A DNA stretch of 64,000 nucleotides from Octopus vulgaris (lineage: Eukaryota). Position 1 is the stretch's first letter; each line of letters opens with the position of its first letter. Made by a program: the position numbers. This document shows positions 8,566-10,807 of this stretch, one piece after another. The stretch is from contig OX597830.1 in NCBI GenBank assembly GCA_951406725.2, forward strand, positions 25,420,001 to 25,484,000. The letters run 5' to 3'.

Positions 8566-9800
8566 ACAAATCGCTAGCCACTACACATTCTTTATTTTCT
8601 CTCTTTGTTTCTTTCTGTGTTCCTTTCTGTGGAAGAGCGTAGGCTCGAAACGTAACGTTAAAGACTTTTTCGCTTCCCGAATGTTATACTAATACATCTG
8701 GTTGTTATCTACATCACCTGTTTTCGTCTTTTGTTTTTTTTTTGTGTGATTTCTCCCTATATATATATATACACAATGAAATGTAAATATAAGATCCAAG
8801 GATCCCGGTGAAAGAAATTAGTAAGCTTCGAGCAGTCCAAATGAGGTATAAAAAACAACTTGCAGGAACAATTATGGTTTATTGGCGTAGAAGGTTGTAA
8901 ATGTTTCACATATCGAAGTTCGATAAGCTGAAAAAAGTTATCTTATAGTTCACAGTTAGAAGCCAGGGTTACTATGTATGTGAATAAAAATCCACATTTA
9001 GAGAAGGAGCAGGTAAATTCTAGGCTACTTACGTAGCCTGGGTTTTACCAGCTCCATTCCTTAAATTCGGATTTTTATTCATATATTTATAGTGTATGGT
9101 GAACAGAAATTAAATAGTGAGAAAAAAGGTCACCAGAATTTTGGAAAATTTTTTTTATTTCTACATTATTATTTGCACTTTCGTTCGTTTCTCGGCCTTT
9201 TTTCTCAGTATATGTATATGTTTGTTCCTTCTCGGGCCACGCTTGGCTCATAAGGGCCGGTTTCCCGGTTTCCTTGGCGTATAGGTTCCCCACCTGGACG
9301 GGACGCCGGTCCGTCGCAGGTGAGCTGCAAGAGGAAAGAGTATGAGAAAGTTGTCACGAAAGAGTCAGCAGAAGTTCGCCATTACCTTCTGCCGGAGCCG
9401 CGTGGAGCTTCGGTGTTTCGCTCATAAACACACACATCACCCGGTCTGAGATTCGAACCCGTAATCCCTCGACAGCGAGTCCGGTGCTCTAACCACTAGG
9501 CCATGTGCCTCTACATACATACATATATACATACATACATGTATATGTATAATATATATATGTATATATATATACGAAAATAAACAAAAGACGAAGGCAG
9601 GTGGAGTACAAACAAACAAATGTATTAGTATGGCGCTCAGGCATAGAAATAGAACAAGTCTTTTACGTTTCGATCCTACGCTCTTCGACAGAAAGATACA
9701 CAGAAAAAAAACAAGGAGAGAAAAAAAATGCGTGTAGGAGCTAACGATCTATCATGACATTCTGACGTCGGGCAGAGGTCAGAAGTCAGACGCTAGAGGG

Positions 9801-9831
<31 letters not shown>

Positions 9832-9873
9832 TATACATATATACATATACATATATATATGTATATATGTATA

Positions 9874-9948
<75 letters not shown>

Positions 9949-10268
9949 ATTCTCTAAATGAGATATATACAGTAACTGCTCCATAACATAAGGGACTAAA
10001 GTCATCTGAATATGGCTAGGGACAGGGCAGGGTGGTGGGGGTGTTACTGTTGCATTTAGCCCCAGGCGAACATCAACGTCGCTAGGTAGGCTTGACACCA
10101 TCACGGTGTCCTTTAATCTGCAAAGGGAGATAATTCCCCGATGATCTCCCGTGATGGTGTCAAGCCTATCTAGCGACGTTGATGTTCGCCTGGGGCTAAA
10201 TGCAACAGTAACACCCCACCACCCTGCCCTGTCCCTAGCCATATTCAGATGGCTTTAGTCCCTTATGT

Positions 10269-10299
<31 letters not shown>

Positions 10300-10807
10300 C
10301 TAGCGTCTGACTTCTGACCTCTGCCCGACGTCAGAATGTCATGATAGATCGTTAGCTCCTACACGCATTTTTTTTCTCTCCTTGTTTCTCTCCTTGTTTT
10401 TTTTCTGTGTATCTTTCTGTCGAAGAGCGTAGGATCGAAACGTAAAAGACTTGTTCTATTTCTATGCCTGAGCGCCATACTAATACATTTGTTTGTTTGT
10501 ACTTCACCTGCCTTCGTCTTATGTTTATTTTCGTAAACCTTCCCGTTATATATATATATATATATGTGTGTTAAAAGGGATAAATTATCATGGCGGATAC
10601 CATGTCTCACGAACTGTTATAGATGCCGGCTATCCACAATGGTTCAATTACATAGTACTCGAGCTTAAAAGAGAAGCTGGTACTGGTAAGCTTCACTCGG
10701 TGGGTAGTTCCGTGTTCCTATTCAGAACTGCAAATATTCCGTAGAATATGTAATTGATAACGAAGAAGAGTGGGGATTTATTCACATCCAAAACACTACT
10801 CTTCCTT

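What the first reader, a model, noticed from the sequence alone, without database searches (positions are those of the whole stretch)
9574..10548. Hairpin within a hairpin; both outer arms share a private mutation
Seen: a ~225-bp-arm fold-back with a (TA)n loop, into which an unrelated ~125-bp-arm fold-back has inserted, giving a ~1-kb compound palindrome. Both outer arms read aggAtcgaaac, while the solo copies at 8641 and 41500 read aggCtcgaaac (which pairs stem II). Inference: the two arms derive from one molecule in one event or were homogenised by conversion, rather than being two independent insertions; the (TA)n loop then served as the next target.
Basis: partly seen in the sequence, partly recalled or inferred. 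Interest (0 to 1): 0.7.

Follow-up and report, generated by a model that had tools for sequence, protein, structure and literature searches.

The report
Nested inverted retroelement insertions in (TA)n
A real 1-kb hairpin-within-a-hairpin that most likely records two successive Penelope-like retroelement insertions, each laid down as an inverted pair in a TA microsatellite, which is a known habit of these elements and not a new kind of structure.

Summary
The structure is real. The outer arms, 9573-9800 (-) and 10298-10552 (+), differ by 2 substitutions in about 225 nt plus two indels. They enclose a TA-rich tract and a 289-nt hairpin at 9983-10271. Both arms carry the A variant and both solos carry C. 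That site is only one of at least 6-10 states the arms share against the solos.

The arms are 5'-to-5' copies of a roughly 250-nt interspersed repeat. Its 3' end abuts (TA)n in all copies, and its best-conserved block has the layout of a Penelope-like-element (PLE) minimal hammerhead, but with U at core position 6. Rfam finds no hammerhead.

An unrelated family in the same window (42687-42993, solo at 59686-59856) has the same geometry. Its solo lies next to a PLE-type GIY-YIG ORF. The inner hairpin has a one-sided 37-nt extension, like the published PLE "tail".

PLEs are reported to insert as inverted 5'-truncated pairs, to favour microsatellites, and to extend both cleaved strands.

Best reading: one-event PLE-type inverted insertion, followed by a second insertion into its TA centre. 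Allele frequencies across the family, empty sites and read support could not be checked.

The parts
9552..9572 (.). TA-rich tract flanking the compound structure on the left
   Evidence: Read; within 5 nt of a (TA)>=4 tract.
9573..9800 (-). Left outer arm. An inverted copy of repeat unit 1 with its 3' end pointing left. It lacks the terminal 11 nt that the right arm and both solos have.
   Evidence: (nhmmer E=8.6e-60 against the right arm).
9659..9696 (-). Hammerhead-like motif in the left arm. It carries the A variant, which breaks the third pair of helix II.
   Evidence: Motif position. Layout read and compared with passages of PMC4209133.
9801..9945 (.). TA-rich centre of the outer pair. 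It is itself mirrored about 9852.5: C9844/G9861, C9836/G9869 and C9826/G9879, with 51 of 52 positions complementary.
   Evidence: Random placement of the variants reaches 3 mirrored pairs in 1 of 300 trials, the strongest signal among the 26 tracts tested.
9946..9982 (-). 37-nt extension on one side of the inner hairpin only, with no mirror partner. It is a candidate PLE-type 'tail'.
   Evidence: no other copy in the window. The tail concept comes from passages of PMC8557442 and PMC11167929.
9983..10106 (.). Inner hairpin, left arm
   Evidence: 2 substitutions and a 1-nt indel against the right arm.
10107..10148 (.). Inner hairpin, 42-nt loop
10149..10271 (.). Inner hairpin, right arm. It abuts (TA)13 directly.
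10272..10297 (.). (TA)13 between the inner hairpin and the right outer arm
10298..10552 (+). Right outer arm. A sense copy of repeat unit 1 with the complete 3' end. It contains a 12-nt tandem duplication (10376-10387 and 10388-10399) and the 11-nt terminal piece (10536-10546).
10412..10449 (+). Hammerhead-like motif in the right arm (A variant at 10434)
10547..10565 (.). (TA)n following the 3' end of the right arm
8569..8762 (+). Solo copy of unit 1 (71% identical to the right arm). Its 5' side ends at a (CA)n tract and its 3' end is followed by TA repeats. The hammerhead-like motif with the C variant is at 8622-8664.
   Evidence: (E=2.9e-18).
41468..41620 (+). Solo copy of unit 1 (84% identical to the right arm). 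Only the 3' 150 nt are present and the 5' side ends in microsatellite. The hammerhead-like motif with the C variant is at 41481-41518.
   Evidence: (E=5.7e-27).
42687..42993 (+). Comparator: an inverted pair from an unrelated repeat (unit 2). The right arm is complete, with a 41-nt terminal piece followed by (TA)n. The left arm is inverted, lacks those 41 nt, and abuts (TA)n.
59686..59856 (-). Comparator: solo copy of unit 2. It lies 138 nt downstream, on the same strand, of the GIY-YIG ORF at 59995-60525(-), and it ends at (TA)n.

Best explanation
The outer fold-back is a single Penelope-like-element (PLE) type insertion of a short repeat, unit 1. Unit 1 is either non-autonomous or a heavily 5'-truncated element.

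**Proposed steps**
1. The element's endonuclease/reverse transcriptase cuts a (TA)n target.
2. Both cleaved strands prime reverse transcription near the 3' end of the element RNA.
3. The two cDNAs meet 5'-to-5' and are joined across a self-complementary TA-rich leader.
4. The result is two inverted copies with 3' ends outward, one of them a few bases shorter at its outer end.
5. The mutation that breaks the motif's helix II was already in the template, so both arms carry it.
6. Later, an unrelated element of the same class inserted into the central TA tract, again as an inverted pair with a one-sided 37-nt extension.
7. The pure TA runs then changed length by slippage.

**Shown here:** the geometry, the near-identity of the arms, the TA context, the motif layout, and a parallel case in the same window.

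**Taken from papers:** inverted 5'-adjacent copies, the tail, microsatellite bias, and extension of both strands.

**Inferred:** that unit 1 is PLE-mobilised, and that the two cDNAs are joined through TA.
For: 1. **Sister arms.** 2 mismatches in about 225 nt between arms, against 26 in 165 to the nearer solo.
2. **Orientation.** The 5' ends face the centre. The constant 3' end is followed by TA repeats in 4 of 4 copies. The three independent loci start at different unit positions: position 1 in the arms, about 48 at 8569, and about 102 at 41468.
3. **Conserved block with a min-HHR layout.** The best-conserved block of the family has these parts:
   - a 5-bp helix I;
   - a 7-nt core box;
   - one unpaired base before helix II;
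   - a 4-bp helix II closed by a G-C pair;
   - GAA;
   - a palindromic ACGU;
   - a non-G cleavage-site base.
   The unpaired base, the G10.1-C11.1 pair and the palindromic 15.2-16.2 positions are the idiosyncrasies reported for PLE minimal hammerheads (PMC4209133 passages).
4. **Descriptor scan.** Over both strands of the window a loose descriptor hits only the two solos. The shuffle mean is 0.11, and 0 of 100 shuffles reach 2. The full descriptor hits 1, against 0 of 100 shuffles.
5. **Precedent for paired motifs.** The same paper reports dual minimal hammerheads 100-700 bp apart on opposite strands. Here the two motifs are about 750 bp apart.
6. **Published PLE features.** PMC8557442 (passages) reports high 5' truncation, an inverted 5'-truncated copy adjacent at the 5' end, a 30-40-bp tail often at one end only, and (TA)n as a preferred target of Naiads.
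7. **Published in vitro behaviour.** PMC11167929 (abstract and passages) reports that a PLE protein cleaves and extends both strands, and that reverse transcription starts at two adjacent internal sites that correspond to the tail.
8. **Parallel case in the window.** The pair at 42687-42993 has a one-sided 41-nt terminal piece. Its solo relative lies 138 nt downstream of an ORF with a GIY-YIG match (19.8 bits; relatives P0001 and P0002 score 22.6 and 24.7 against a cutoff of 22.6), and the ORF also has the cysteine motifs described for PLE endonucleases.
9. **Inner element.** It has a one-sided 37-nt extension.
10. **Mirrored centre.** The TA centre is mirrored about 9852.5.
Against: - No reverse transcriptase or endonuclease ORF is linked to unit 1 in the window.
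- The core box has U where hammerheads have an invariant A (position 6; the invariance is recalled). All three lineages have the U.
- Rfam lists no hammerhead in four E<=10 scans (0 hammerheads among 40, 1, 0 and 12 matches) or at gathering score.
- My descriptor was written after seeing the sequence, so its shuffle statistics are inflated.
- Helix II has 4 bp. The Schistosoma PLE families are reported with 7-8 bp.
- The outer pair's one-sided piece is 11 nt, not 30-40, and a later deletion between short TA repeats would explain it equally well.
- The link between unit 2 and the GIY-YIG ORF rests on adjacency and strand only.
- Only three independent loci of unit 1 were available.
- The null model for the mirrored TA variants ignores the 8/10-nt periodicity of such tracts, so 1/300 overstates the signal.
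Confidence: 0.55

Rival explanations
1. Local DNA-level fold-back duplication. A pre-existing solo copy flanked by TA tracts was copied in inverted orientation by replication or repair template switching. The nascent (TA)n end folded back on itself and then switched back at the other TA tract.
For: - (TA)n is self-complementary.
- The duplicated segment is bounded by TA tracts on both sides, and the centre is mirrored.
- The left arm ends at a TA dinucleotide 11 nt short of the tail.
- Foldback inversions mediated by single-stranded DNA hairpins are documented in yeast (PMC7467729) and human (PMC3907307). For both papers I saw only the search listing and the start of the abstract.
Against: - The arms coincide with the boundaries of a mobile unit. 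They do not run into unique flank: no inverted homology extends beyond the TA tracts.
- The same geometry recurs in two other unrelated repeats in the window, with one-sided pieces of 37 and 41 nt. That points to an element-encoded process.
Confidence: 0.15
2. Class II fold-back or MITE-like transposon with roughly 230-nt terminal inverted repeats and a TA loop, inserted as one DNA molecule into a TA microsatellite. The solos would be half-elements left by deletion. The inner hairpin would be a second such MITE.
For: - Small TIR-dominated, (TA)n-flanked elements are known in plants. SaTar MULEs are 380-1700 bp with TIRs of 40-250 bp, and 62-95% of copies are flanked by microsatellites (PMC5907723, sections 13 and 19). 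MuTAnT is another example (PMC4486113, abstract).
- The window holds at least five other small fold-backs next to TA tracts.
Against: - The outer termini are unequal, since the left arm lacks 11 nt.
- The inner hairpin has a 37-nt extension on one side without a mirror partner.
- Of 3 independent unit-1 loci, 2 are single-armed with different 5' ends and the same 3' end.
- The hammerhead-like block points to an RNA-based element.
- SaTar arrays are described as never nested.
Confidence: 0.12
3. Two independent insertions of the same young subfamily of unit 1, in opposite orientations, into the TA tracts on either side of a pre-existing inner hairpin.
For: - Unit 1 ends at TA repeats in every copy, so TA tracts appear to be its target.
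- With only two old solos for comparison, the shared states could be subfamily markers.
Against: - No other young copy exists in the 64-kb window, which holds 50 TA tracts of at least 20 nt.
- Both arms start within one base of each other.
- The TA tract carries mirrored variant repeats.
- The pair at 42687-42993 has no spacer at all, so it cannot be two insertions. This shows that a one-event process operates in this genome.
Confidence: 0.08
4. Assembly artefact in a TA-rich region, that is, a chimeric or fold-back read.
For: PLE tandem and inverted structures and long TA tracts are reported to cause assembly problems (PMC8557442 passage).
Against: - The arms have diverged by 2 substitutions, a 12-nt duplication and an 11-nt indel, and the inner arms have also diverged.
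- Unique, non-mirrored sequence flanks both sides.
- The window has no N.
Confidence: 0.03

Closest known systems
Penelope-like element insertion structures: pseudo-LTRs, an inverted 5'-truncated copy at the 5' end, and a one-sided 30-40-bp tail (PMC8557442 passages; PMC11167929 abstract and passages)
   Same: - An inverted copy lies on the 5' side of a sense copy.
- 3' ends point outward.
- 5' ends vary among copies.
- One end carries a terminal piece: 37 nt in the inner element, 41 nt in the comparator pair.
- Flanks are (TA)n.
- A PLE-type GIY-YIG ORF sits in the same window, next to a solo of the comparator family.
   Different: - No RT/EN ORF is attached to unit 1.
- Both arms run to the same 5' position, whereas the published structures show one arm more truncated than the other.
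- The outer pair's one-sided piece is only 11 nt.
- A long TA tract separates the arms.
Minimal hammerhead motifs of PLE pseudo-LTRs (PMC4209133, passages)
   Same: - Short helix I.
- An unpaired base between positions 9 and 10.1.
- A G10.1-C11.1 pair.
- Palindromic positions 15.2-16.2.
- Motifs occur singly in truncated copies, or as pairs on opposite strands a few hundred bp apart.
   Different: - Core position 6 is U in all three lineages.
- Helix II has 4 bp.
- No Rfam hammerhead model matches.
- In the two arms helix II is also broken by the C-to-A change.
- Cleavage is untested.
Microsatellite-targeting class II elements: SaTar MULEs (PMC5907723, sections 13 and 19), MuTAnT (PMC4486113, abstract), and Micron/TAFT (as cited within those papers)
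   Same: - Small elements dominated by inverted repeats and flanked by (TA)n.
- Several unrelated elements cluster in one microsatellite.
- Flanking TA runs expand after insertion.
   Different: - Those are plant DNA transposons with symmetric termini and 8-11-bp target duplications when they sit outside microsatellites, and they are reported as non-nested.
- Here the termini are asymmetric, solos have variable 5' ends, and the family carries a ribozyme-like block.
Foldback inversions formed through single-stranded DNA hairpins at short inverted repeats (PMC7467729 and PMC3907307; search listing and start of abstract only)
   Same: An inverted duplication centred on a self-complementary sequence.
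   Different: - Those are large chromosomal rearrangements whose end points are unrelated to repeat boundaries.
- Here the copy equals one mobile unit and lies inside otherwise collinear DNA.
L1 twin priming (recalled; no paper was read)
   Same: Both ends of a staggered break prime reverse transcription, which gives an inverted segment.
   Different: Twin priming inverts the 5' part of a single copy without duplicating it. Here the same segment is present twice.

Membership tests
Penelope-like element insertion (autonomous or PLE-mobilised non-autonomous) | RT plus GIY-YIG endonuclease ORF inside the element, or sequence shared with the 3' region of such an element | tested here: not met
   The arms hold no coding ORF. 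The 153-aa frame at 9793-10254(-) is TA low complexity. Unit 1 has no similarity to the region next to the only GIY-YIG ORF in the window. A genome-wide search was not possible.
Penelope-like element insertion (autonomous or PLE-mobilised non-autonomous) | Constant 3' end with variable 5' truncation among copies | tested here: met
   The 3 independent loci start at unit positions of about 1, 48 and 102. All end at the same 3' sequence followed by TA repeats. Microsatellites at the 5' junctions blur the exact start points.
Penelope-like element insertion (autonomous or PLE-mobilised non-autonomous) | Inverted copy immediately 5' of a sense copy | tested here: met
   Left arm antisense, right arm sense, 5' ends facing each other. 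The comparator pair at 42687-42993 has the same arrangement.
Penelope-like element insertion (autonomous or PLE-mobilised non-autonomous) | 30-40-bp tail present at one end only | tested here: inconclusive
   The outer pair has 11 nt at one end (10536-10546). The inner element has 37 nt (9946-9982) and the comparator pair 41 nt.
Penelope-like element insertion (autonomous or PLE-mobilised non-autonomous) | Insertion bias for microsatellites | tested here: met
   All four ends of the outer arms lie at TA tracts. 9 of 14 outer ends of fold-backs lie within 5 nt of a TA tract against a 6.6% background, p = 3.5e-8.
Hammerhead ribozyme (type I / PLE minimal variant) | Conserved core boxes CUGANGA and GAAA | tested here: not met
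   GAAA is present. The first box has U at position 6 in the arms and both solos. No canonical box followed by a stem and GAAA occurs on either strand of the window.
Hammerhead ribozyme (type I / PLE minimal variant) | Helices I and II around the core, with a G10.1-C11.1 pair | tested here: met
   Both solos have a 4-bp helix II closed by G-C, and a helix I of 5 bp (41481-41518) or 4 bp (8622-8664). In both arms the third pair of helix II is broken by the A variant.
Hammerhead ribozyme (type I / PLE minimal variant) | Match to a curated covariance model | tested here: not met
   No hammerhead family appears at gathering score or at E<=10 in four local scans. Minimal PLE variants are reported to escape standard descriptors, so this result weighs less than it otherwise would.
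Hammerhead ribozyme (type I / PLE minimal variant) | Self-cleavage | not testable with these tools
   This needs an in vitro transcription and cleavage assay.
MITE / class II fold-back transposon | Inverted repeats that reach both termini, with a target-site duplication | tested here: not met
   The outer termini are unequal by 11 nt. The inner hairpin has a 37-nt extension without a mirror partner. Any duplication is hidden by the TA flanks.
MITE / class II fold-back transposon | Multiple two-armed copies in the genome | not testable with these tools
   Apart from this locus the window has 0 two-armed copies and 2 solos of unit 1, and no second copy of the inner element. No eukaryotic collection was open.

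The most novel reading that the evidence does not exclude
Unit 1 is a still-unnamed, PLE-derived non-autonomous family. Its hammerhead-type motif has carried U at core position 6 through three lineages that have diverged to 68-84% identity.

This would mean one of two things:
- a non-canonical core is tolerated, or
- mobilisation does not need cleavage.

In addition, the mirrored TA centre would preserve the joining step of PLE two-strand priming: two cDNAs annealed through a self-complementary leader. That step has not been defined mechanistically.
Probability: 0.15. Interest if true: 0.55.

Novelty: new member of a known kind. Interest (0 to 1): 0.27.

Why it matters
On its own this is a neutral repeat structure. 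Its value is as a clean, small, datable example.

- It shows a complete inverted PLE-type insertion of only about 250 nt per arm.
- It contains a second insertion of the same style nested in the centre.
- A third example lies 32 kb away.
- It sits in a cephalopod-like genome where such structures are likely to be mis-annotated as MITEs or hairpin RNA genes.

If the PLE reading holds, the locus gives testable predictions about where reverse transcription starts (the one-sided 11, 37 and 41-nt pieces) and how the two cDNAs are joined.

Long, near-perfect nested palindromes at TA tracts are also candidate fragile sites and possible sources of hairpin RNA. Nothing here shows either.

Tried and rejected
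- **Canonical hammerhead.** Rejected as a membership claim. Rfam finds none, and core position 6 is U.
- **tRNA-derived SINE for unit 1.** ARAGORN finds no tRNA in the window and Rfam finds no tRNA match in 8350-10750. The 'GGCTCGAAAC' stretch resembles a B box only loosely, by eye.
- **microRNA precursor.** Sub-threshold Rfam hits on the inner hairpin and the TA tract (MIR391 at 45.6 bits against a threshold of 70; mir-297, mir-3149) reflect hairpin shape or low complexity only.
- **Stable RNA structure for unit 1.** The folds are no better than shuffles, with z from +0.7 to +1.4, apart from -1.15 for the 51-nt motif of the 41500 copy.
- **More family members in the window.** nhmmer finds only the 4 known unit-1 copies and the 2 inner arms. 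My first blastn was swamped by TA hits.
- **Literature by sequence.** A 17-nt stretch of the conserved block appears in 0 papers. A search for cephalopod + SINE + hammerhead returned 13 papers, none relevant judging by title and abstract. A search for octopus + TE + MITE listed 15 of 486 matching papers, none on such elements.
- **Organism.** Only a hint: the best named relative of a LINE-type ORF is from Argonauta hians, at 59% identity.
- **Ordering the two insertions by arm divergence.** Not significant.
- **A first definition of TA tracts** split the loop and gave nothing. It was replaced.
- **Not done.**
  - No supplementary files were opened, and those of PMC4209133 and PMC8557442 may hold mollusc examples.
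Full report
**1.

Reading 9300-10800 and the repeat finder show two nested inverted repeats.

Outer arms:
- The left arm is 9573-9800 and the right arm is 10298-10552.
- They are reported as two blocks: 154 nt at 98% and 138 nt at 93% complementary.
- The split arises because the right arm carries a 12-nt tandem duplication (10376-10387 and 10388-10399).

Inner hairpin:
- It spans 9983-10271, with 124-nt arms around a 42-nt loop.
- The arms differ by 2 substitutions and a 1-nt indel.

Other checks:
- As single-stranded DNA the kilobase folds into the nested double hairpin at -502.9 kcal/mol.
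- The 11-nt motif occurs four times in the window. It carries A in both arms and C at 8641 and 41500. The chance expectation is 0.03, and 0 of 100 shuffles reach four.

Three details differ from the finding:
- The two hairpins are not concentric.
- A 37-nt stretch (9946-9982) has no mirror partner.
- The left arm lacks 11 nt (10536-10546) that the right arm and both solos have.

**2. The 'private mutation' is one of many shared states**

A four-way alignment has 157 columns in which all copies have a base.
- 101 columns are invariant.
- 29 are private to the 8569 copy and 12 are private to the 41468 copy.
- 6 are arm-private: 10434 and 10466 in clear sequence, and four in a T/C-rich stretch.
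- In 4 more columns the arms agree while the solos differ from them and from each other.
- The arms disagree in 5 columns. Three of these fall in the misaligned terminal indel. The two real differences are 9604/10504 and 9587/10521 (read).

Identities are 97.9% between arms, 84% and 71% for arm against each solo, and 68% between the solos. Arm-to-arm divergence (2/225) against arm-to-solo divergence (26/165) gives p = 8.6e-9.

So the arms are each other's closest relatives by a wide margin. With only two old solos, however, none of these states can be called private to this locus. nhmmer finds no further copy of the unit, the inner arm, or the 37-nt piece in the window.

**3. What the arm is**

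All copies share the same end, followed by TA repeats. Their other ends differ:
- The arms run about 255 nt.
- The 8569 copy starts near unit position 48, at a (CA)n tract.
- The 41468 copy starts near position 102, in microsatellite.

A constant 3' end with variable 5' ends is the pattern of a retroposed unit. In the outer pair the 5' ends face each other.

The most conserved block of the family has these parts:
- a 4-5-bp helix I;
- a 7-nt core box;
- one unpaired base;
- a 4-bp helix II closed by G-C;
- GAA;
- a palindromic ACGU;
- a non-G base.

The C at the variant site pairs in that helix, and the arms' A breaks it.

Cervera and de la Peña (PMC4209133; passages) describe minimal hammerheads in the pseudo-LTRs of Penelope-like elements with exactly these oddities:
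- a short helix I;
- a base between positions 9 and 10.1;
- a G10.1-C11.1 pair;
- palindromic positions 15.2-16.2.

They also note pairs of motifs 100-700 bp apart on opposite strands, and single motifs in truncated copies.

Evidence against membership:
- Core position 6 is U in all three lineages. I recall this position as invariant A in hammerheads.
- Helix II is short.
- Rfam reports no hammerhead at gathering score or at E<=10 in four local scans.

A descriptor of my own, scanned over both strands, hits only the two solos. The shuffle mean is 0.11, and 0 of 100 shuffles reach two. Its stricter form hits one copy, against 0 of 100 shuffles. The descriptor was written after seeing the sequence.

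I therefore call the block hammerhead-like and not a hammerhead.

**4. A parallel case in the same window**

A self-comparison lists other close inverted pairs:

| Coordinates | Note |
|---|---|
| 2082-2284 / 2726-2927 | |
| 21709-21864 | |
| 41889-42040 / 42160-42312 | |
| 42687-42942 | |
| 48520-48642 / 48851-48980 | |
| 7857-7964 / 8131-8237 | U6 pair |

The palindrome at 42687-42993 has a solo relative at 59686-59856. Alignment A1 shows:
- The right arm and the solo both begin right after (TA)n with the same 41-nt piece.
- The left arm is an inverted copy that lacks those 41 nt and abuts (TA)n.
- The two arms share states against the solo.
- Homology to the solo ends within about 10 nt of the palindrome centre.

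The solo lies 138 nt downstream, on the same strand, of ORF 59995-60525(-). That ORF has:
- a GIY-YIG match at 19.8 bits, below the 22.6 cutoff, while its relatives P0001 and P0002 score 22.6 and 24.7;
- a CX4CX2C motif upstream of the core, and two cysteines inside it.

Craig et al. (PMC8557442; passages) give these features for PLE endonucleases. The link between this ORF and the solo is inferred from adjacency and strand only.

**5. Published PLE behaviour matches the geometry**

Craig et al. state that:
- PLE insertions are highly 5'-truncated;
- they often carry a 30-40-bp tail at one end only;
- they show microsatellite bias, with (TA)n a preferred target of Naiads.

Frangieh et al. (PMC11167929; abstract and passages) show that:
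- a purified PLE protein cleaves and extends both DNA strands;
- reverse transcription starts at two adjacent internal sites, and the interval between them corresponds to the tail.

Two cDNAs primed from the two cut strands would lie 3'-outward and 5'-inward. If they used different start sites, one arm would have an extra terminal piece.

That is what the comparator pair shows (41 nt) and what the inner element shows (37 nt, TA on both sides). The outer pair shows it weakly (11 nt, which a later deletion would also explain).

**6. The centre**

The TA tract 9801-9945 is itself mirrored about 9852.5.
- C9844/G9861, C9836/G9869 and C9826/G9879 correspond.
- 51 of 52 positions are complementary.
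- Random placement of the variants reaches three mirrored pairs in 1 of 300 trials.
- This is the strongest signal among 26 comparable tracts. Two others reach 21/300 and 5/300.
- The null ignores the 8/10-nt periodicity of such tracts, so I treat the signal as suggestive.

It fits a palindrome that originally ran through the centre. The pure TA runs would later have changed length, and the inner element would have landed in the right-hand run. Expansion of TA flanks after insertion is reported for TAFT elements (as cited in PMC5907723, section 19).

**7. TA association**

- TA tracts of at least 8 nt cover 4.9% of the window.
- 6.6% of positions lie within 5 nt of one.
- 9 of 14 outer ends of the seven fold-backs do so (p = 3.5e-8).
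- Without the finding's two structures the count is 6 of 10. The p value of 2.4e-4 was computed for 5 of 10 and is therefore conservative.

**8. Order of events**

Nesting implies that the inner element came second. Arm divergence neither supports nor contradicts this: 2/124 against 2/225, p = 0.62.

**9. Rivals**

The main rivals are:
- a DNA-level template switch at the TA tracts;
- a class II fold-back of the SaTar/MuTAnT kind;
- two independent insertions;
- an assembly artefact.

They are weighed in the Rival explanations section. Three points tell against them:
- the duplicated segment equals a mobile unit;
- the termini are asymmetric;
- the same one-sided geometry recurs in three unrelated repeats.

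**10. What stayed unchecked**

- No eukaryotic DNA collection was available. Allele frequency across the family, empty sites, an autonomous partner for unit 1, and read support are all open.
- The organism is only hinted at: the best named relative of a LINE-type ORF is from Argonauta hians at 59% identity.
- No supplementary files were opened.

**Verdict**

The structure is real. Both arms most likely came from one event. That event is most likely an ordinary Penelope-like insertion pattern and not a new phenomenon.

Noticed in passing
window 7881-7987 (+) and 8108-8213 (-): Two U6 snRNA matches (59.5 and 87.6 bits against a gathering score of 44) face each other 3'-to-3', 120 nt apart, inside an 82%-identical inverted repeat (7857-7964 / 8131-8237). 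They lie 1.4 kb upstream of the finding. I could not tell whether either is a functional gene or a retropseudogene.
   Followed up: partly
window 59995-60525 (-): A 176-aa open frame with a GIY-YIG match and PLE-type cysteine motifs. No reverse transcriptase frame was seen upstream of it in 60526-64000, so it looks like a 5'-truncated Penelope-like copy.
   Followed up: partly
window 42687-42993 and 59686-59856: A loop-less palindrome from an unrelated repeat with a one-sided 41-nt terminal piece, together with its solo relative. The geometry matches the finding.
   Followed up: yes
window 2082-2927; 21709-21864; 41889-42312; 48520-48980: Four more small fold-backs. Their arms are about 70-200 nt at 86-92% identity. 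Each has one outer end at or near a TA tract, and the first has (TA)n in its loop. None has a second copy in the window. Whether they are MITEs or PLE-type pairs was not resolved.
   Followed up: partly
window 9300-9510 (-), with relatives near 33710-33903 and 51687-51898: A repeat whose head looks tRNA-like by eye, with A- and B-box-like stretches, abuts the microsatellite on the left of the finding. ARAGORN and Rfam do not call a tRNA.
   Followed up: no
window 22323-22907 (+): An open frame with a zf-RVT domain (35.1 bits), the C-terminal part of a LINE-type reverse transcriptase. Its best named relative is from Argonauta hians at 59% identity.
   Followed up: partly
window 44157-44318 and 2921-3105: Two other alternating purine/pyrimidine microsatellites show more mirrored C/G variants than random placement gives (8 pairs, reached in 5 of 300 trials; 4 pairs, reached in 21 of 300). 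This hints that hairpin-type processes shape TA-rich tracts more generally.
   Followed up: no
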